Source of the DNA: a virus
Lineage: Duplodnaviria > Heunggongvirae > Uroviricota > Caudoviricetes
Length of the DNA stretch: 6,086 bases
Direction: 5' to 3' (one strand)
IMG/VR virus record: IMGVR_UViG_2690316273_000023
Location: 1 to 6,086 of that record
Below are positions 1-6,086 of this stretch, piece by piece. Every line of letters starts with the position of its first letter. The stretch's first letter is position 1. A program made the position numbers and the translations under genes. Under the pieces are notes generated by a model. The model searched no databases and had not been told where the DNA came from. It worked only from the letters and a program-made list of their open reading frames with translations.

Positions 1-474
1 ATGTACAGTCCGGTACAAATAGCCAATAAATTCATAACGTTGGGAAACCAACATCATAATCCTCTGACCCACATGCAACTTCAGAAGCTTACTTATATTG
101 CCCATGGTTACTATTTAGCATTAACAGGTAAGCCTTTGCTCAATGAATGTGTCTCCGCGTGGAAGTACGGTCCAGTTATTCCTGGAATGTACGATGCTTT
201 CAAAGACTATGGGAATAAACCTGTTACGAATGTAGCAGTAGCTCCTTTTGGTGGCATCGTTACTATGGATCCGCAAGCAGAGAGCATTATAGGGGCTGTT
301 TATAAGTTTTACGGCTCGAAAAATGGAATTGAGTTATCAACTCTAACTCATATGCCAGGTACGCCTTGGTCACAAGCTTATAATGGTATTGGCTCGTCGA
401 TCATCTCAAATGATGCGATCAAGGCTTATTATCATGATTTATTGAATAACCGACAGCAATGTCAGGGCCTCTGA
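1..474 (+). CDS. Panacea-domain (DUF4065) protein, PanA/SocA/GepA-like putative antitoxin
   Basis: 157-aa ORF from the ORF track. N-terminal half (YSPVQIANKFI...LTHMQLQKLTYIAHGYYLALTGKPLLNECVSAWKYGPVIPGMYDAF) matches my recollection of the conserved DUF4065/Panacea core (LQKLLY..G..L...G.PLF.E...AW.YGPV.P..Y). The ATG sits at window position 1, so RBS and promoter cannot be seen and the true start is unverified. GC visibly lower than the rest of the window. Confidence 0.72.
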   Translation: MYSPVQIANKFITLGNQHHNPLTHMQLQKLTYIAHGYYLALTGKPLLNECVSAWKYGPVIPGMYDAFKDYGNKPVTNVAVAPFGGIVTMDPQAESIIGAVYKFYGSKNGIELSTLTHMPGTPWSQAYNGIGSSIISNDAIKAYYHDLLNNRQQCQGL

Positions 475-496: not shown

Positions 497-1045
497 ATGT
501 CTCATAATTCAGATATCTATAAACTGATCGGAGCGGCCGCAGGTGTTGAAAATGGTCGCTCTGAAGCATCCTTAAACTCTACTGACAGTCAAGAGCAGGC
601 TTTTGAATCCGCATTTGAGCCGTCTAATCATGAGCGCGATGATGATTCTTCTTCAGAAAATAAGGCTATTCTGGAGGCAGAAGAGTTTGGTTCTAATACT
701 GGTGCATTGCATGAGTTTATGCAGCAGAACAGAATGGACAGTCTTCAAGCTCAGCTTGATATGCTCAAGTCACAAGTACGGGATAAGATAGCTGACGCAA
801 CTGGTAAAGAAATAGACAATGAGCTTCGGACAAAAATGGCCTCATTCACGGTTTGGTTTATGTCGTGTTGGTGCTTATTTGTAGCCGGAATGTTTGTATC
901 ATTTCTTATTGCTCATGAAGGAAAGCCGCCAGTTGAAGCAATCGTTGCATTACTGGGAACAAGTACAATTAGTATTGTTGGTTTGGTTGGCTTCGTTGTT
1001 AGTGGATTGTTCAAATCTAGAAAAGATGGCGATAAAGAAAAATAA
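497..1045 (+). CDS. Membrane protein with acidic N-terminal region and two C-terminal TM helices; candidate PanA-associated toxin/effector
   Basis: 182-aa ORF starting 22 bp after the upstream stop, with a purine-rich AGGGA 4-5 nt before the ATG. N-terminal ~110 aa are acidic, Ser/Glu-rich and low-complexity with a short predicted coiled segment (QQNRMDSLQAQLDMLKSQVRDKI). The C-terminus has two hydrophobic stretches (FTVWFMSCWCLFVAGMFVSFLIA and AIVALLGTSTISIVGLVGFVVSGLF) and a basic tail (KSRKDGDKEK). No family recognised with certainty; DUF2335-like is possible. Confidence 0.6.
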   Translation: MSHNSDIYKLIGAAAGVENGRSEASLNSTDSQEQAFESAFEPSNHERDDDSSSENKAILEAEEFGSNTGALHEFMQQNRMDSLQAQLDMLKSQVRDKIADATGKEIDNELRTKMASFTVWFMSCWCLFVAGMFVSFLIAHEGKPPVEAIVALLGTSTISIVGLVGFVVSGLFKSRKDGDKEK

Positions 1046-1066
1046 CCCGTATATACACGGGTTATT
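1031..1066 (-). terminator. Intrinsic terminator at the end of the minus-strand operon, possibly bidirectional
   Basis: Perfect 10-bp inverted repeat aataacccgt (1041-1050) / acgggttatt (1057-1066) with a 6-nt loop. On the minus-strand transcript it is followed immediately by UUUCUUUAUC (complement of 1031-1040) and lies 13 nt downstream of the stop of the 1079-1351 gene. The plus-strand stop TAA (1043-1045) lies inside the left arm; on the plus strand the T-rich stretch only begins ~20 nt after the stem. Confidence 0.6.
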
Positions 1067-1078
1067 CATGGTCTTAGT

Positions 1079-1387: not shown

Positions 1388-1960
1388 TCATAATTCTGTG
1401 CTGGTGGCAGGAATTAATTTCTGCCAGATAGCTGAAACATATTTTGCCTGATGACGAGCATCAGCCAGGGCGTTGTGCCGTTCGCCATCGAAAGGCATGT
1501 CCATTTTGGGGTCGAATCCGATGGAACGCCCAAGCGTAACGATCGTGCGTACATCGTGATCATTCCAGTACGCCCATGGGCAGATTTGTCCTGCTCGTTC
1601 ATAAGCTCCGCGTAAAATTACGTTGTCGAAGGTGGCCCCGTTACCCCAAACTTTTAAATATTTCGTATTGCCTGCGTGCCGATTAATGAAATGGCTCAGT
1701 TCAGAGAGTGCATCGCTGATCGACAAAGTATCATCAATACAGATTGCAGCTCGTGCTTCAGGGCTTTGTTTCAACCACCACAGGATGGTATCGCCGTCAG
1801 GTGTGGCCCCTTGCTCCATAGCACTGTCCAGGCTGACAACCGTATAGAATGCTTGTCCGATGTCTCCGGTTTCTGGAGTGAAGAACACCGCGCCAATGGA
1901 AACGAACGGTGCATCCTTATTTTTCCCCATCGTCTCAAGGTCGATCATTAAGTTGTTCAT
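1388..1960 (-). CDS. DEDDh-type 3'-5' exonuclease (DnaQ-like fold, phage Rv2179c-like exonuclease family)
   Basis: Motifs read directly from the translation: Exo I (MIDLETMG), Exo II (WGNGATFDNVIL) and Exo III (HNALADARHQAKY, H-x4-D). ATG at 1960 preceded by GAGGTG; the ORF-track start at 1963 is a GTG. Start overlaps the upstream gene's stop as TGATG. Confidence 0.8.
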   Translation of the reverse strand: MNNLMIDLETMGKNKDAPFVSIGAVFFTPETGDIGQAFYTVVSLDSAMEQGATPDGDTILWWLKQSPEARAAICIDDTLSISDALSELSHFINRHAGNTKYLKVWGNGATFDNVILRGAYERAGQICPWAYWNDHDVRTIVTLGRSIGFDPKMDMPFDGERHNALADARHQAKYVSAIWQKLIPATSTEL

Positions 1961-2586
1961 CACTTCACCTCATGCGGCGGTTCCGGTAGCGGCATCCAGT
2001 GTGATGGTATCCACGACGCACCAGGTATTACCCACCCATCATTAGCGTCAGGATGCCCCGGGATGTAAGTCGCCCATTTCATTCGCCAGTCACCTTTCCT
2101 GTCAAACTCCCTGGCAACAAGAACGGCTGTTTTGCTATCCGGCATTCGCTCACTACAGCTTATCCAACCGCCCGGAATTACCGGAGAGTTGCCATTTACA
2201 TCGAAGTTTGGCTCTGCGTCCTGAACTAGGAGGATGTAACCATTCTTGGCTGTATCAAGTTCTAACGCCTCGGTGACGGTACCGAAATAGCGATTACCTA
2301 AATCAGCATCACAAGTGCTTACATCAATGGAAACTTCCATCCCTTCGATTAATTCTGGCAAGTTGTAAGTTTGGCTTACAGGCTCTGCTTCCAGTGATGC
2401 CAGTGCAATTCGTGCCAGCTCACGCACAACTTCAGGGGGCGCGTAACGGTCATTCAGGTCATCCCACAGGCGTAGCATGTTATCGCTACCAGGGTGAACA
2501 TCCTCGTTAGTTCCGGCAAGCGCACTAATAACCTCATCGGCTGCTTCAATAATTTTCTGTGCCTGTTCTCTGGTAATAGTGGTCAT
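1960..2586 (-). CDS. DUF551-domain phage protein
   Basis: 208-aa ORF. C-terminal region (GGWISCSERMPDSKTAVLV...GWVIPGASWIPSHWMPLPEPP) carries the W-rich signature ending in WMPLPEPP that I recall for DUF551. N-terminal MTTITREQ...ELARIALASLEAEP module is shared with the 2796-3191 gene. Confidence 0.72.
   Translation of the reverse strand: MTTITREQAQKIIEAADEVISALAGTNEDVHPGSDNMLRLWDDLNDRYAPPEVVRELARIALASLEAEPVSQTYNLPELIEGMEVSIDVSTCDADLGNRYFGTVTEALELDTAKNGYILLVQDAEPNFDVNGNSPVIPGGWISCSERMPDSKTAVLVAREFDRKGDWRMKWATYIPGHPDANDGWVIPGASWIPSHWMPLPEPPHEVK
2389..2428. repeat. Dispersed direct repeat, copy 1 (encodes the ELARIALASLE motif)
   Basis: ttccagtgatgccagtgcaattcgtgccagctc at ~2391-2423 matches ttccagcgatgccagagcaattcgtgccagttc at ~3059-3091, 30 of 33 positions identical. 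Both copies lie in the same frame of adjacent minus-strand genes. Confidence 0.7.
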
Positions 2587-2596
2587 TTGTTATGCC

Positions 2597-2794
2597 TCAA
2601 TACACGAAATCTGTTTTAAATTCATGGTTACATTCTGGACAGCATGTTTCGTAACCTTTTATTTCTTCACATGCCTGTTTAGCTCCAGAAAACTCCCAGA
2701 AATCAGCGTCACAAAGCAGATCGAAATTGTGACCGCATTTTGGGCATTCGGTATCAAGTGACAGATTCCAGTAAGCAGTGGTGTTTTTATCCAT
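2597..2794 (-). CDS. Small zinc-ribbon protein (CxxC...CCxxC)
   Basis: 65-aa product MDKNTTAYWNLSLDTECPKCGH...ETCCPECNHEFKTDFVY with two Cys pairs. ATG at 2794 is preceded by AAGGAG with a 6-nt spacer, and the upstream gene's stop is at 2796-2798; the ORF-track start at 2827 lacks an SD and would overlap the upstream gene. Confidence 0.55.
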   Translation of the reverse strand: MDKNTTAYWNLSLDTECPKCGHNFDLLCDADFWEFSGAKQACEEIKGYETCCPECNHEFKTDFVY

Positions 2795-2795
2795 A

Positions 2796-3191
2796 TCAGT
2801 CTCCTTTCCCCTGAAGCATAGCGGCACGGCAGGCGTTCCAGCCTCTCACCTCTGCAATAGCGGCAACAGCATCAACCGCGTACATACTAAGAGGATTAGG
2901 CATTGGTTTTTCTTCCGGTACTACTTGCGCTGGAGGGGCGGCGTAAATGCCCTCTATCACTAAATGTTTGCGCTCAAAATCATCTGGCTCTCGATGATAT
3001 ACGTAACTCCAATCACCAAGGTTATCATTGCGCCTGCAACGGAAACCTATCGGCTCGACTTCCAGCGATGCCAGAGCAATTCGTGCCAGTTCTTCCGCTT
3101 CTTCTGCTGGCAGTACAACGTTGCTACCCGGTCCGTATGTTTCGCGCCACTGCTTGATTGTCAGCAGTCGCTCTTTGGTAATAGTGGTCAT
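2796..3191 (-). CDS. Hypothetical phage protein sharing an N-terminal module with the DUF551 protein
   Basis: 131-aa ORF MTTITKERLL...EELARIALASLEVEP...; AAGGTG 8 nt upstream of the ATG. The shared N-terminus is visible at the DNA level (see repeat features). C-terminal part unrecognised. Confidence 0.6.
   Translation of the reverse strand: MTTITKERLLTIKQWRETYGPGSNVVLPAEEAEELARIALASLEVEPIGFRCRRNDNLGDWSYVYHREPDDFERKHLVIEGIYAAPPAQVVPEEKPMPNPLSMYAVDAVAAIAEVRGWNACRAAMLQGKGD
3055..3097. repeat. Dispersed direct repeat, copy 2 (encodes the ELARIALASLE motif)
   Basis: Partner of the 2389-2428 copy. A second shared block covers the two start regions: ctggtaatagtggtcat at 2570-2586 and ttggtaatagtggtcat at 3175-3191. 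Confidence 0.7.
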
Positions 3192-3193
3192 AG

Positions 3194-3385
3194 CTATTTC
3201 ACCTTAATCTCAACATTTCGCAGCTTTAGCTCTACTGGCAGGTCTGACTTTCCGGTTAATGCTAATGCGAGATTTTCTGGAGTAATGAGAGCAGTTATTG
3301 TTTTCCCCCTCGCCAGACGAATAATCATTCGTATCTCGCAATCGTCACATGCTCCCGGTCGAACAATTGAGATTTGTCCGTTCAT
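3194..3385 (-). CDS. Small hypothetical phage protein (63 aa)
   Basis: Internal ATG at 3385 (MNGQISIVRPGACDDCEIRMIIRLARGK...) is preceded by AAGGAG and lies 1 nt after the upstream gene's TGA (3387-3389). The longer ORF-track version (3194..3547) would overlap the upstream Ea22-like gene by ~160 nt and is rejected. Confidence 0.5.
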   Translation of the reverse strand: MNGQISIVRPGACDDCEIRMIIRLARGKTITALITPENLALALTGKSDLPVELKLRNVEIKVK

Positions 3386-3386
3386 C

Positions 3387-4094
3387 TCACTCTCCTTTGA
3401 TGCGAATGCCAGCGGCGCGCTCGGCTTCACTTTGTTCCCAAAACCACTTGTGAAGCGCCATAAGCTTTTCGTCAATCGGTGCATATTTGCGATTAAAGTA
3501 GGCCTGAGCATCTTTCTCAGATTCGTCCGGTAATTCGCCAGGGCCAAACAGTGTGTTATAAATCCATGCTAGTCCGCTCTTAGCGTCGCCAGTTGCCTGC
3601 CATTCGATAATGGCAGCCTGCATGACCAGAATGTTTTTCCCGATTAATAGGTCCAGTTCTTTGTACCGGTTGCGGATGTATGCATTCTCGCTTTGTAATT
3701 TTGCGTTGCGCTTTTCTGAGGCTTCAAGTAACGCCTGCTTATCGCGTAGCGCTTCTTCCAGTTCAGCAACATGGCACTCACTATCAATAAGGTTGTTCTC
3801 TGCGGCTTCCAGCTCAACACGCAGCTTCCCTACCGTTAGCGCAATATCCTCGTTCTCCTGGTCACGGCTTTTGATGTATTGCTGGTTTCTTTCCCGTTCA
3901 TCCAGTAGTGCCAGCACGGTTTCTGGTCCGGCCAGAAATTTGAAGGCGTTGAGCGCATCAATATCCACACCGTAATCTTTAAGTTCCTGTTCACTTAACA
4001 AATCATCATCAGCTGGCAACATTAACAGGCGTTCCATTGCTGGAATTGCACGTTCCGCCGCCTCACGCAGTGCCTGATAGTCAATCTTGCTCAC
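3387..4094 (-). CDS. Ead/Ea22-like coiled-coil protein
   Basis: 235-aa ORF MSKIDYQALREAAERAIPAMERLL... with a long heptad-like Glu/Leu/Ala-rich central region (ELEAAENNL...ELEEALRDKQALLEASEKRNAKLQSENAYIRNRYKELD). Matches my recollection of Ea22-like proteins of lambdoid prophages. Start overlaps the upstream stop as ATGA. Confidence 0.68.
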   Translation of the reverse strand: MSKIDYQALREAAERAIPAMERLLMLPADDDLLSEQELKDYGVDIDALNAFKFLAGPETVLALLDERERNQQYIKSRDQENEDIALTVGKLRVELEAAENNLIDSECHVAELEEALRDKQALLEASEKRNAKLQSENAYIRNRYKELDLLIGKNILVMQAAIIEWQATGDAKSGLAWIYNTLFGPGELPDESEKDAQAYFNRKYAPIDEKLMALHKWFWEQSEAERAAGIRIKGE

Positions 4095-4780
4095 TGGTTG
4101 CCTCCTTTTCGAAGCTGGGCGGCGATATCTTCGAGAACGCCATCAGAGAATGAGCGGTCAAAATCGCCTTCCGGCGCATTAGCCATAAACTCAGTAGAGG
4201 TAAGAATCATCCGGGCAATATCCGCGGCGTTCTTCGCAGTATCATCAATAAAACCAGCTTCCCAGGCAGCCAGCATTCTGTTCGCCACAAAATAAGCGCC
4301 TTCCTTGCGTGCTTCAGTCTTCACTTCAGCCAGAAAAGCATCGGTGGCTGGGGTGTCGATATTAGGCAGAAGCGCATAATCGCAAATCGTATCGATCGCA
4401 GGATCACAACAGTCATCCTCGTTGCGTGGTCGTTCGCCAACCTTCGTTGACGATTGCATGATGATTCCCCAGCAAATACTATCGACCTCTTCGCTCCATC
4501 CATCGCAAGCATCACCGCGATAGTCGTCAATTGCAGCCTCAGCCGATTCGATAGCTTCCTCAGCAGTTTTGTGCCATTCGAAATTATGCTCAGAGCCATA
4601 TGAGAAATATGAATGTCCCGCCTTCAGCCCCGCATTCTCCGCCGCCAGCGCCGCGCACTTGGCCTCCGCTTCAGCAAATTTACGCACCAGATATTCAGCA
4701 TTTGTTTCGTTCACTTTCAGATCTCGCGGTACACATTTCCCGCGAAGAAACCCTTCCATTTCGAAAACATTCATGCGCAT
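4091..4780 (-). CDS. Ead/Ea22-like family protein (second, divergent copy)
   Basis: 229-aa ORF with N-terminal coiled-coil segment (NAEYLVRKFAEAEAKCAALAAENAGLK) followed by an acidic, Cys/Trp-containing domain. GGAG 8 nt upstream of the ATG at 4780. Family call is from recall and only moderate. Confidence 0.55.
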   Translation of the reverse strand: MRMNVFEMEGFLRGKCVPRDLKVNETNAEYLVRKFAEAEAKCAALAAENAGLKAGHSYFSYGSEHNFEWHKTAEEAIESAEAAIDDYRGDACDGWSEEVDSICWGIIMQSSTKVGERPRNEDDCCDPAIDTICDYALLPNIDTPATDAFLAEVKTEARKEGAYFVANRMLAAWEAGFIDDTAKNAADIARMILTSTEFMANAPEGDFDRSFSDGVLEDIAAQLRKGGNQ

Positions 4781-5307
4781 TTGCGTAACTCCGATAACTC
4801 GTTAAAACGTTCCATAAACATCCCGTAGGCATGGCCTGGTGACAGTGGAATAACTTTGAACATCTCTGTTGCCGGGATGCCTTCCAGTACAGGCCAGAAA
4901 GAGCCATCATCAAGCCCGAGATCGCGGCGTTCGGTTGCCAGCATGATGAGATCGGCATATTTCACTGGCGTGCTCATAACAGGAGGTAACCCGTATTTCT
5001 CACGGATTACGGCGTCTATTTTTTCTTCCATCCGTTTATAGTCAGGAAGAAGTCGTTTCAGTGGCGCGGGGATGTCCTGGCAATATGCTTCTGTTGCATC
5101 ATGCATTAACGCTTCAAAAGCAAATTCCTGCGGCACCAGCTGGCTGCAAAGCACCGCATGCTGGGCGACACTGTAGAAGTGTGAAAGATGTCCTGCAAAG
5201 CGACAGATATTTGAAAGGGAAACTGCGATATCGTTAATCACGATGTCGTCTTTATTTATCTTGTCATAATAAAAATGCTTCCCGGAAAAAGTTTTAATAA
5301 ATGACAT
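4771..5307 (-). CDS. yfdR: HD-domain phosphohydrolase, YfdR-like (5'-deoxynucleotidase family)
   Basis: His...His-Asp metal-binding signature read from the translation (HLSHFYSVAQHAVLCS ... ALMHDATEAY). Internal ATG at 5307 (MSFIKTF...) is preceded by GGAG with a 6-nt spacer and gives 178 aa, which I recall is the length of E. coli K-12 CPS-53 YfdR. The ORF-track start at 5319 is a GTG lacking an SD. Confidence 0.78.
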   Translation of the reverse strand: MSFIKTFSGKHFYYDKINKDDIVINDIAVSLSNICRFAGHLSHFYSVAQHAVLCSQLVPQEFAFEALMHDATEAYCQDIPAPLKRLLPDYKRMEEKIDAVIREKYGLPPVMSTPVKYADLIMLATERRDLGLDDGSFWPVLEGIPATEMFKVIPLSPGHAYGMFMERFNELSELRKCA

Positions 5308-5401
5308 TTCGTTCTCCACTTTATATGCGCTGCACCGCGCTGAATTCTGCTAAAAGGAAGCTCTCACCATCCGGTGATTATTGAGTTAATTACGTTTCCA
5401 T

Positions 5402-5435: not shown

Positions 5436-6086
5436 TCAGGCGGTGAAAGTACCAATAAAGGTTTCTACTTTGCTGTCTTTGAATTTCTCAACAAGCAGAT
5501 CACGAAATTCGTTAGCCATTTCTTCCTGCATCGCTTCCAGCTGAATAATGCGCAGAACCAGTACAGGACGATCGCCAGTGATAATTCTGAGGCGTAATTT
5601 AAACGGACGTTCTTTCAGGCCTTCAAACGGAACGCATTTAAATTCAAATGCCACTGGCATAATGTCTTTGGTTTTCGCTTCGACAGACTCCATCAGGGAG
5701 CGTTTGCCGCTGAAGTCATTGTCTTCAAAATCAGCGGTCTGGTTTGCTTCAATTGTGATTTTACGGACTGCAGCAGCCGCTTTGGTTGCCTGAATGGTGT
5801 CACCATTAGCATCAAAGCCCACAAGGTAGTCGGCCCAGTCTTCAATCCATTCTGCCAGTGACTTCTGGGAGTTACGCTCGCCATTAACAGACAACAGAGC
5901 AGAAAACGGTGCTGTCTTTTTCAGTTTGAGGGTGGCGGTGTTATCTGCGTGACCTGGTTCATCAATAGTACCCAGGTTAAGCACACTGACGGCTCGCATA
6001 TTATCGGCATCGATAAAGCAGCGGGTGCCTTCATCTGCAAGATCTTTAGAATAACGGGTAAAGTCATCGATGCTGGCAGTGGAAAG
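5436..6086 (-). CDS. yfdQ: DUF2303-family protein, YfdQ-like; partial, 5' end lies beyond the right window edge
   Basis: I translated the minus-strand frame upstream of the ORF-track Met at 5999 and it stays open to position 6086 (...[35 protein letters not shown]...), so the gene is truncated by the window. The position immediately upstream of the yfdR-like gene matches the yfdQ-yfdR order I recall for CPS-53. Family assignment is by synteny and recall, not by a motif I can verify. Confidence 0.55.

What the first reader, a model, noticed from the sequence alone, without database searches (positions are those of the whole stretch)
2389..3191. Two adjacent genes share an N-terminal module but have different C-terminal domains
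The 208-aa DUF551 protein and the 131-aa protein both begin MTTIT(R/K)E and contain ...ELARIALASLE(A/V)EP, with near-identical DNA at 2391-2423 / 3059-3091 and at the two start regions. Their C-termini are unrelated (DUF551 versus unknown), and a zinc-ribbon gene sits between them. This looks like domain shuffling by local duplication or recombination, and the shared module may be a common interaction or targeting domain.
Basis: seen in the sequence. Interest (0 to 1): 0.5.

Follow-up and report, generated by a model that had tools for sequence, protein, structure and literature searches.

The report
Shuffled prophage accessory genes share leader
Two neighbouring prophage genes start with the same short leader segment because both belong to a large family of E. 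coli phage accessory proteins assembled from interchangeable modules, which is a clear but largely expected case of phage gene mosaicism.

Summary
Both minus-strand genes, 208 aa (1960-2586) and 131 aa (2796-3191), begin MTTIT(R/K)E and contain ELARIALASLE(A/V)EP (BLASTP E=5e-7). The window is the early-left (exo-xis / 'ea') accessory operon of an E. coli lambdoid prophage.

The shared piece is a discrete N-terminal leader. It comes in a 48-aa form (N1) and a 70-aa form (N2). It starts at the ATG and ends at ...LEAEP. It heads at least 1258 protein clusters (50% identity), followed by dozens of unrelated cassettes.

The 131-aa protein is not 'leader plus unknown domain'. Its 95-98% identical relatives continue into DUF551, so it is the front half (N1-B-C) of the same module chain. 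It ends after the conserved RAAMLQ joint at a recurrent stop/Shine-Dalgarno/ATG junction. In other phages, modules of both genes sit in a single polypeptide of about 400 aa.

Breakpoints cluster at the conserved joints. SNPs inside N1 are unlinked from the downstream cassette, and synonymous divergence exceeds non-synonymous. This supports repeated homologous recombination at conserved joints plus protein-level constraint. It does not support a local duplication.

The function of the leader is unknown. It is predicted helical at low confidence, and I infer a self-association or docking role by analogy with Ea22.

Verdict: new member of a known kind, of moderate to low interest.

The parts
2796..3191 (-). 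131-aa gene (g131). Architecture: N1 leader, B mini-domain, C helix, then a GKGD terminus and stop.
   Evidence: ORF. Relatives at 95-98% identity are 200-228 aa and carry DUF551. AF2 model has mean pLDDT 64.6.
3048..3191 (-). N1 leader module, codons 1-48: MTTITKERLLTIKQWRETYGPGSNVVLPAEEAEELARIALASLEVEPI.
   Evidence: Found in 1268 of 5426 complete E. coli genomes, up to 7 places per genome. It is a DNA island of 0.87-1.0 identity from the ATG to +135, with flanks conserved in only 14-17% of 80 viral loci. BLASTP breakpoints peak at residue 48.
3051..3092 (-). ELARIALASLEVEP joint motif of g131 (codons 34-47).
   Evidence: Compared with the g208 copy, pS is 0.38 and pN 0.03.
2910..3047 (-). 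B module (residues 49-94): a beta-beta-alpha-beta mini-domain ending YAAPPAQVVPEE.
   Evidence: AF2 strands at 49-54, 63-65 and 77-82, with pLDDT 74-80. It is one of more than 25 alternative cassettes that follow LEAEP.
2811..2909 (-). C module (residues 95-127): a helix ending GWNACRAAMLQ.
   Evidence: AF2 helix 105-127. The same module lies directly before DUF551 in the phiSTEC1575-Stx2k protein. BLASTP breakpoints peak at residue 127.
2792..2807 (-). Gene-junction element AAAGGAGACTGATATG. It encodes the last residues KGD and the stop of g131, carries the Shine-Dalgarno sequence, and ends in the ATG of the zinc-ribbon gene.
   Evidence: Two copies in the window against 0 expected by chance. 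Present on the coding strand in 75 of 88 fetched loci.
2597..2794 (-). 65-aa zinc-ribbon-like gene between the two leader-bearing genes (two CxxC pairs).
   Evidence: ORF. phrog_4173 at 1e-28. Weak zinc-motif hits. No promoter or terminator of its own.
1960..2586 (-). 208-aa gene (g208). Architecture: N2 leader, M module, DUF551.
   Evidence: A 100% identical protein (P0241) and many variants exist in E. coli and Salmonella prophages and plasmids.
2377..2586 (-). N2 leader module, codons 1-70: MTTITREQAQ...RELARIALASLEAEPV.
   Evidence: Found in 179 of 5426 E. coli genomes. BLASTP breakpoints at residues 69-72. AF2 gives three helices at low confidence.
2380..2421 (-). ELARIALASLEAEP joint motif of g208 (codons 56-69).
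2173..2376 (-). M module (residues 71-138): SQTYNLPELIEG...NGNSPVIP.
   Evidence: The same module follows ...RAAMLQGGQPV in mEp460 gp27. It follows AAMLQGSQPV in P0329 and L045. AF2 does not resolve it (pLDDT about 27).
1960..2172 (-). DUF551 domain (residues 139-208) and stop codon.
   Evidence: Pfam PF04448 at E=3.5e-20, residues 140-204.
3172..3191 (-). Start patch ATGACCACTATTACCAAAGA of g131. Its partner in g208 is 2567-2586.
   Evidence: 19/20 identical (family D4).
3383..3398 (-). Second copy of the junction element (AAAGGAGAGTGAGATG), at the stop of the Ea22-like gene and the start of the 63-aa gene.

Best explanation
The two genes are paralogous members of a highly mosaic family of early-left-operon (exo-xis / 'ea' region) accessory proteins of enterobacterial lambdoid prophages. 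These proteins are strings of small, independently exchangeable modules joined by short conserved Pro-containing joints: ...LEAEP(V/I), ...Y(A/T)APPAPVVP, ...AAMLQ, ...SPVTPDGW and ...HWMPLPEPP.

Shown:
- The shared N-terminal piece is one such module, a leader that begins at the start codon and ends at LEAEP.
- It occurs in at least two forms: N1 (48 aa, in the 131-aa gene) and N2 (70 aa, in the 208-aa gene).
- Either form can sit in front of the same bodies.
- The 131-aa gene is N1-B-C and stops just after the RAAMLQ joint at a recurrent stop/Shine-Dalgarno/ATG junction.
- The 208-aa gene is N2-M-DUF551.
- In other phages equivalent modules lie in one polypeptide. So in this window the chain is split in two, with a zinc-ribbon gene between the halves and the second half restarted by a leader.

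Inferred mechanism of origin: repeated homologous recombination within the conserved joint-coding DNA. This is the boundary-sequence model of lambdoid mosaicism. It is not a duplication within this prophage.

Inferred function (weakest step): the leader is an amphipathic helical segment kept by selection on the protein. I think it most likely serves self-association or docking that presents the variable downstream domains to host targets early in infection. This follows the example of the N-terminal and coiled-coil part of Ea22, which tetramerises and carries variable C-terminal domains.
For: Context:
- The window matches lambdoid and Stx phages and the E2348/69 prophage.
- All genes from 5999 to 1079 are on one strand, with no internal promoter or terminator signal above chance.

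Module reality:
- Pairwise BLASTP E=5e-7, and shared PHROG N-terminal profiles.
- A profile of the leader finds 1258 clusters at E<=1e-3 and 443 at E<=1e-10 among 1.84 billion representatives. In 148 of the 150 listed hits the match starts within the first 8 residues.
- Of 136 representatives, 32 have DUF551, 5 have dATP/dGTP pyrophosphohydrolase, 1 has Lar, and about 98 have no Pfam domain.

Interchangeability: P0288/P0299 (N1 plus the g208 body), P0240 (N2 plus the g131 B module), and P0329/P0343/P0347 (extra modules inserted).

g131 as the front half of a DUF551 chain. Single-chain versions: L045, L010, L054 and L068, and phiSTEC1575 and mEp460 gp27.

Joints:
- Breakpoints cluster at residues 48 and 127 of g131 and at 69-72 of g208.
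- N1 DNA is an island bounded at the ATG and at about +135.
- SNPs at nt 136-144 are linked to the downstream cassette (Cramer's V 0.77-1.0, null 0.42). SNPs at nt 12-135 are not (0.34-0.56).
- 64 of 78 site pairs show all four gametes.
- The junction element is recurrent.

Protein-level constraint: pS 0.13 against pN 0.015 among N1 alleles, and pS 0.38 against pN 0.03 for the motif between N1 and N2.

Helical prediction.

Literature:
- Ea22 proteins are mosaic, DUF551 is described as a portable domain, and Ea22 is tetrameric with a dimeric CTD (PMC10834534).
- The exo-xis region downstream of ea22 is variable and mosaic (PMC8614690).
- The boundary-sequence model is cited in PMC3029335.
Against: - No experiment or confident structure supports any function for the leader. 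AF2 confidence over it is 44-66 pLDDT, and there were no fold or PDB matches.
- The pN/pS estimate among N1 alleles is biased downward, because the loci were retrieved by exact peptide patterns.
- Conserved joints could also be explained by selection on viable products of illegitimate recombination, without the joints acting as crossover sites.
- The island starting exactly at the ATG also fits a translation-initiation role.
- The direction of events (a chain split by insertion, or two genes fused by deletion) cannot be decided from these data.
Confidence: 0.7

Rival explanations
1. Local tandem duplication within this prophage. One gene was copied next to itself, and the copies then diverged and acquired different C-termini.
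For: The two genes lie 605-671 nt apart on the same strand and share start and motif patches. Eight of 80 related loci carry two leader genes.
Against: - Similarity is limited to two patches. The 22-codon insertion region and the remainder of the leader are not alignable.
- The motif patch has pS 0.38.
- Both N1 and N2 are separately widespread and internally conserved in many other contexts.
- The identical two-gene arrangement also occurs in other contigs (L005-L008), so it was not created in this genome.
Confidence: 0.05
2. The leader has no protein function of its own. It is a 'start cassette' and recombination handle. Its conserved DNA provides an efficient translation start and homology for cassette exchange, and the peptide is merely tolerated.
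For: - The DNA island begins exactly at the ATG.
- The first 16 nt are identical between N1 and N2.
- The body of N1 is unlinked from both flanks.
- The AF2 model is low-confidence.
- The second half of a split chain restarts with a leader.
Against: - Non-synonymous diversity is about a tenth of synonymous diversity among N1 alleles (sampling caveat applies). The ELARIALASLE peptide is kept despite synonymous changes between N1 and N2.
- The Shine-Dalgarno region is not part of the island and differs among loci.
- Very different leader variants keep the same peptide ends: MNSITKE... in P0075, MNTITKE... in mEp460 gp27, and MTTFTNKE...IALVSLEVEP in YfdT.
Confidence: 0.2
3. The 131-aa gene is a decaying remnant: a DUF551 gene truncated by insertion of the zinc-ribbon gene, and not functional as such.
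For: Its nearest relatives are longer and carry DUF551. A zinc-ribbon gene sits where DUF551 would be.
Against: - The same ending, RAAMLQGKG(E/D/K)-stop, recurs in many distinct alleles with different B or C modules: P0009, P0067, P0075, P0089 (41 contigs), P0158, P0215.
- It ends in a well-formed junction element that also closes the Ea22-like gene.
- The ORF is intact and tightly coupled to the next gene.
Confidence: 0.1
4. Chance resemblance of two short motifs.
For: Only about 22 residues are clearly shared.
Against: - BLASTP E=5e-7.
- Common PHROG profile hits at 1e-11 to 1e-18.
- The junction and joint patterns are absent from shuffles.
- There are hundreds of database proteins with either leader.
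Confidence: 0.01

Closest known systems
Ea22 / Ead family proteins of lambda and Stx phages (Pfam PF13935), described as mosaic with portable C-terminal domains including DUF551 (PMC10834534, PMC8614690)
   Same: - Same operon region. An Ea22-like gene lies upstream in 64 of 80 related loci.
- Same logic: a conserved helical N-terminal part plus variable C-terminal domains.
- DUF551 is one option for the C-terminus.
- The proteins are acidic.
- phiSTEC1575 fuses an Ea22 N-terminus to the C module of g131 and to DUF551.
   Different: - The leader here has no PF13935 match.
- It is much shorter, with no long coiled coil.
- Its oligomeric state and any pro-lysogenic effect are untested.
E. coli K-12 CPS-53 prophage proteins YfdT and YfdS (PMC4776307)
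   Same: - YfdT has the same layout: MTTFTNKE...IALVSLEVEP followed by a cassette (DEREAYELFMEKRFG...). That cassette also occurs behind N1 (P0127) and behind the mEp460 leader variant.
- YfdS shares its first 45 aa (93%) with the 229-aa gene of this window and carries DUF551.
- The yfdQ and yfdR homologues are in the window.
   Different: - YfdT matches the leader profile only weakly: 13.3 bits, better than all 2000 shuffles.
- The reported activity (multicopy yfdQRS or yfdQRT inhibits replication initiation) has not been tied to any module.
Pfam DUF551 (PF04448) proteins
   Same: g208 is a member. Most close relatives of g131 are members too.
   Different: g131 itself lacks the domain. The finding concerns the N-terminal leader, which Pfam does not model.
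Boundary-sequence (linker) model of lambdoid mosaicism: Susskind and Botstein 1978, and Clark et al. 2001 on HK620, as cited in PMC3029335
   Same: Short conserved sequences lie at module boundaries where exchange occurs. Here there is both an intergenic 16-nt junction and intragenic joints.
   Different: The joints here lie mostly inside genes and are also conserved as peptide. Selection on protein linkers and use as recombination substrate therefore cannot be separated with these data.
Polymorphic toxin and effector families with a conserved N-terminal region and variable C-terminal domains
   Same: Conserved N-terminus, highly diverse C-terminal cassettes, and sharp junctions at a conserved motif.
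   Different: This is an analogy of architecture only. There is no secretion or immunity context and no toxin domains. These are phage early-operon genes.

Membership tests
DUF551 (PF04448) | Match to the Pfam model above the gathering score (22 bits), for the 208-aa protein. | tested here: met
   73.1 bits, E=3.5e-20, residues 140-204.
DUF551 (PF04448) | Match to the Pfam model above the gathering score, for the 131-aa protein. | tested here: not met
   No Pfam hit. However, relatives that are 95-98% identical over its full length continue into DUF551.
Ead/Ea22-like (PF13935) | Match to the Pfam model in either of the two genes. | tested here: not met
   Only the neighbouring gene 3387-4094 matches (E=1.2e-32). 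Neither g131 nor g208 matches.
Leader-module family (PHROG 3323 / 660 / 5117 / 60 N-terminal region) | Both proteins match the same profile region with their N-termini. | tested here: met
   phrog_3323: residues 1-73 at 1.6e-11 and residues 1-56 at 7.9e-18. phrog_660, phrog_5117 and phrog_60 are also hit by both.
Leader-module family | The module is N-terminal, starts at the initiator Met and ends at the (I/L)A(L/V)xSLE(A/V)EP joint. | tested here: met
   In 148 of the 150 best representatives listed, the match starts within the first 8 residues of the protein. The joint motif is followed by dozens of unrelated sequences. The DNA island runs from the ATG to +135.
YfdT-like (K-12 b2363) | Significant sequence similarity of the leader to the YfdT N-terminus. 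| tested here: inconclusive
   Pairwise BLASTP matches only IAL(A/V)SLEVEP, E=0.002. Profile score is 13.3 bits, above all 2000 shuffles. The layout and the downstream cassette are shared through P0127 and mEp460 gp27.
Products of a local tandem duplication | Contiguous DNA homology between the copies with low synonymous divergence. | tested here: not met
   Only two patches align. pS is 0.38 in the best patch.
Oligomerising N-terminal scaffold (Ea22-like mode of action) | Self-association of the N-terminal segment. | not testable with these tools
   Only monomer AF2 was available. It gives helices at 6-18 and 29-44 (N1) and at 6-24, 35-47 and 51-65 (N2), with block-mean pLDDT 44-66 (N1) and 36-60 (N2).

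The most novel reading that the evidence does not exclude
The leader is a dedicated address tag. It would be a short helical docking, oligomerisation or turnover signal that marks a hypervariable repertoire of phage early effectors, covering more than a thousand architectures. Those architectures include a nucleotide pyrophosphohydrolase and a Lar-type restriction-alleviation domain. The tag would deliver all of them to one common hub, for example the YfdQ/YfdR-DnaA replication-control complex or a host protease. The conserved joint DNA would have been co-opted as a built-in recombination substrate that lets prophages re-deal the repertoire. That would make this a phage counterpart of polymorphic effector systems and a natural test bed for the boundary-sequence model.
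Probability: 0.12. Interest if true: 0.6.

Novelty: new member of a known kind. Interest (0 to 1): 0.33.

Why it matters
Mosaic accessory genes between exo and xis in lambdoid and Stx phages influence the lysis-lysogeny decision and host physiology, yet most are uncharacterised.

This locus shows unusually clean conserved joints, both inside and between genes. Population data indicate that crossovers fall within them. It is therefore a convenient system for testing whether short boundary sequences really drive phage mosaicism, as opposed to illegitimate recombination followed by selection.

It also corrects annotation. The 131-aa 'hypothetical protein' is a DUF551-family chain without its last domain. 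The many 'DUF551 domain-containing proteins' are better described as combinations of about half a dozen module types.

The phenomenon itself, mosaic proteins with a portable DUF551, is already published for the neighbouring Ea22 family, so the gain is incremental.

Tried and rejected
- AF2 with shallow alignments. The g208 model is unusable (pLDDT 45.3; the middle module is about 27). The g131 model is moderate (64.6) but the leader is low-confidence.
- Foldseek of the g131 model against BFVD and PDB gave no match at E<=1e-3. PDB sequence searches found nothing.
- NCBIfam and PADLOC gave no hit for either gene.
- A sigma-54-like string, TGGCACG..TTGCA, lies inside the ELARIALA coding DNA. I rejected it because the GG-to-GC spacing is 8 nt rather than 10 (read from the sequence; the consensus is from my own knowledge).
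- Chi site: not present.
- P0273 (MTTITRE followed by RLLTIK) looked like a crossover inside the first 20 nt. It can equally be a single AAA-to-AGA change, so I did not use it.
- The genome-contig scan returned only 5 loci because a single peptide pattern was used. It supports no more than 'Enterobacterales' as the range.
- Literature searches for the motif strings found nothing.
- I considered the zinc-ribbon gene as a moron with its own signals. No promoter or terminator was found.
- I considered a ClpX N-terminal recognition motif (from memory of the lambda O and Dps type signals) for TTITKE. The fit is poor and cannot be tested here.
Full report
**What is in the window.** All ORFs of interest lie on the minus strand and are tightly packed. 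In order of transcription they are:
- a YfdQ/DUF2303 gene (5436-5999 as listed; the Pfam match starts at profile position 84 of 269, so the gene probably begins beyond the window end);
- a YfdR-like HD hydrolase (4771-5319);
- a 229-aa protein (4091-4780);
- an Ead/Ea22-like protein (3387-4094);
- a 63-aa protein (3194-3385);
- the 131-aa protein (2796-3191);
- a 65-aa zinc-ribbon-like protein (2597-2794);
- the 208-aa DUF551 protein (1960-2586);
- an Rv2179c-type 3'-5' exonuclease (1388-1963);
- a PrtN/excisionase-like protein (1079-1378).

The DNA matches lambdoid, Stx and mEp460-like phages piecewise at 95-98%. It matches a prophage of E. coli E2348/69 at 99.8% over 1964-3600. No sigma-70-like promoter lies on this strand, and terminator-like sites within the block do not exceed chance. 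This is therefore the early-left (exo-xis / 'ea') accessory operon of an enterobacterial lambdoid prophage.

**Checking the observation.**
- BLASTP aligns residues 1-70 of the 208-aa protein with 1-48 of the 131-aa protein. There are 27 identities and a 22-residue gap, E=5e-7. Nothing else is significant.
- The DNA repeats are 2567-2586 / 3172-3191 (19/20) and 2381-2440 / 3052-3111 (77% of 60 nt).
A 41-nt probe with 3 mismatches does not find the partner.
- Between the patches the DNA does not align.
- Both N-termini hit the same PHROG profile regions, for example phrog_3323 at 1.6e-11 and 7.9e-18.

**What the 131-aa protein really is.** Its best homologues, 95-98% identical over 98-100% of its length, are mostly 200-228 aa and carry a C-terminal DUF551 domain. 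Reading them shows the layout:
- leader: MTTITKE...ELARIALASLE(A/V)EP;
- B: IGFRCRR...IYAAPPAPVVPEE;
- C: ...GWNACRAAMLQ;
- then either GKG(E/D/K)-stop, or a linker followed by one of several DUF551 variants, or other domains.

The window's protein is the short form. Its last codons and stop lie within AAAGGAGACTGATATG (2792-2807), which contains the Shine-Dalgarno sequence and start codon of the zinc-ribbon gene. The same 16-nt element (AAAGGAGAGTGAGATG, 3383-3398) closes the Ea22-like gene. None is expected by chance. It occurs on the coding strand in 75 of 88 fetched loci. The short ending is thus a regular alternative terminus, not a random truncation.

**The leader is a portable module.** A profile of five leader variants finds many proteins in which an identical leader is followed, straight after ...EP, by more than 25 unrelated sequences. 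Examples are IGFRCRR, VSQTYNLPELIEG, VAWMRDDADGRE, VAYIFKHPAGKL, VASCIIEDG, DERAAYELFMEKRFG and VVYMWDSERKD (DUF4752), and there is a dATP/dGTP pyrophosphohydrolase.
- An exhaustive HMMER scan of 1.84 billion cluster representatives gives 1258 proteins at E<=1e-3 and 443 at E<=1e-10. In 148 of the 150 listed hits the match starts within the first 8 residues.
- Of 136 of these, 32 carry DUF551, 5 carry PF04447, 1 carries Lar, and the rest have no Pfam domain.
- N1 DNA occurs in 1268 of 5426 complete E. coli genomes, up to 7 places per genome and also on plasmids. N2 occurs in 179 genomes.
- The one genome-contig scan found relatives only in Escherichia, Shigella, Enterobacter and Edwardsiella.

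**The two genes are two deals from one deck.** Homologues of the 208-aa protein include:
- P0288 and P0299 (P0299 seen on at least 1000 contigs), which carry N1 in place of N2 on the same M-DUF551 body;
- P0283 and P0351, with the same N2-M but other DUF551 variants;
- P0329, P0343 and P0347, in which B- and C-type modules are inserted between leader and M;
- P0240, which is N2 followed by the B module of the 131-aa gene.

Viral contigs encode single chains of about 400 aa, such as L045: N1-B-C'-linker-D-E-M-DUF551. mEp460 gp27 and the phiSTEC1575-Stx2k protein combine the M module and the C module with other N-termini, including an Ea22 N-terminus.

Compared with such chains, the window has the sequence 'KGD-stop, zinc-ribbon gene, N2 leader' sitting between ...AAMLQG and PVSQTYNL.... 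Whether this arose by insertion or the long forms arose by deletion cannot be decided here. The same two-gene arrangement exists in other contigs (L005-L008).

**Evidence for how it arises.**
- High-identity BLASTP segments against 496 collected proteins end at residue 48 (55 cases) and residue 127 (59 cases) of the 131-aa protein. They end at residues 69-72 of the 208-aa protein.
- In 80 viral loci the N1 DNA is an island. Identity to the window is 0.87-1.0 from the ATG to +135. Only 14% of loci share the 15 nt upstream and only 17% share the DNA beyond +135. At least ten different upstream genes are seen.
- In 61 non-redundant loci, SNPs at nt 136-144 are tightly linked to the downstream cassette (Cramer's V 0.77-1.0 against a null of 0.42). 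SNPs at nt 12-135 are not (0.34-0.56). Of 78 site pairs, 64 show all four gametes.

This is what repeated homologous exchange within the leader DNA predicts. It corresponds to the boundary-sequence model (Susskind and Botstein; Clark et al. 2001, as cited in PMC3029335), with the difference that most joints here are intragenic.

Local duplication is not supported. The best-conserved patch between the two genes has pS 0.38 and pN 0.03, and the remainder of the leaders is not alignable.

**Is the peptide itself constrained?** Among 55 distinct N1 alleles, pS is 0.13 and pN is 0.015. This is biased, because the loci were found through peptide patterns. The comparison within the window is not biased in that way and points the same direction. 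Very different leader variants keep the M-x-x-(I/F)-T start and the IAL(A/V)SLE(A/V)EP end: P0075, mEp460 gp27 and K-12 YfdT. I conclude, as inference, that the peptide matters and not only the DNA.

**Structure and function.**
- AF2 gave a poor model for the 208-aa protein (pLDDT 45.3). N2 appears as three helices, and DUF551 as a beta structure at pLDDT 60-70.
- AF2 gave a moderate model for the 131-aa protein (pLDDT 64.6). N1 has helices 6-18 and 29-44 at pLDDT 44-66. B is beta-beta-alpha-beta at 74-80. C is a helix at 105-127.
- There were no fold or sequence matches to solved or predicted viral structures.
- Both proteins are acidic, with pI 4.4 and 5.1.

Published work on the neighbouring family shows the following. 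Ea22 proteins are mosaic, DUF551 is called a portable domain, and lambda Ea22 is a tetramer with a dimeric C-terminal domain (PMC10834534). The region beyond ea22 is variable and mosaic (PMC8614690). Multicopy yfdQRS or yfdQRT inhibits replication initiation in K-12 (PMC4776307).

By analogy only, I propose that the leader is a self-association or docking helix that presents variable domains. This step is inferred and is the weakest in the argument. The main rival is that the leader is a start-and-recombination cassette with no function of its own.

**Comparison with what is known, and novelty.** The phenomenon is known: mosaic, multi-domain accessory proteins in the lambdoid exo-xis region, with DUF551 as a movable domain. 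The leader module itself is not modelled in Pfam or NCBIfam. It is buried within several PHROGs. The motif strings occur in no paper of the searched library. Its closest named relative is K-12 YfdT, with only weak sequence support.

I therefore file it as a new member of a known kind. The scale of the combinatorial family and the clean joints make it a useful test system, but a phage genomicist would not be surprised.

Noticed in passing
window 1-474 (+) and 497-1045 (+): A DUF4065/SocA-like antitoxin-type protein (NCBIfam NF047745, E=1e-27, below the curated cut-off) is followed by a 182-aa protein with a hydrophobic C-terminus. The matching genes in phage PhiR47_1 are annotated PanA and PanT, so this is probably a Panacea-type toxin-antitoxin pair at the prophage end.
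   Followed up: partly
window 4091-4780 (-): The 229-aa protein shares its first 45 residues (93%) with K-12 YfdS and then diverges completely, lacking YfdS's DUF551. This is a second N-terminal module type showing the same shuffling.
   Followed up: partly
window 3387-4094 (-), residues 124-222: The C-terminal half of the Ead/Ea22-like protein matches the PADLOC model named DpdH at E=1.2e-36. What that model really represents was not examined.
   Followed up: no
window 2792-2807 (-) and 3383-3398 (-): A recurrent 16-nt gene-junction element, AAAGGAGA(G/C)TGA(T/G)ATG, encodes the last residues KG(E/D), a stop, a Shine-Dalgarno sequence and the next start. It occurs twice in the window (0 expected by chance) and on the coding strand in 75 of 88 fetched loci.
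   Followed up: yes
window 3194-3547 (-): The mechanically listed 117-aa TTG ORF overlaps the Ea22-like gene. The real gene is probably the 63-aa product starting at the ATG at 3385, which covers phrog_1222 end to end.
   Followed up: partly
window 1960-1964: The 99.8% identity to the E2348/69 prophage stops exactly at the boundary between the DUF551 gene and the exonuclease gene, whose start and stop overlap. This is another mosaic joint at a gene border.
   Followed up: no
window 2405-2419 (-) and 3076-3090 (-): The DNA encoding LARIAL reads CTGGCACGAATTGC(A/T), which resembles a sigma-54 -24/-12 element. The GG-to-GC spacing is 8 nt rather than 10, so it was dismissed.
   Followed up: yes
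window 1040-1067: A 12-bp hairpin with T-runs on both sides lies between the convergent PanT-like gene and the excisionase-like gene. It is probably a bidirectional terminator.
   Followed up: no
P0001 and P0176 (relatives of g131): In some genomes a zinc-ribbon-like ORF (MKTFTIDWLNKCRCGNK...CNSCGR...) is fused in frame upstream of the N1 leader, so the leader becomes internal (starting around residue 72). This is either read-through annotation or a real fusion.
   Followed up: no
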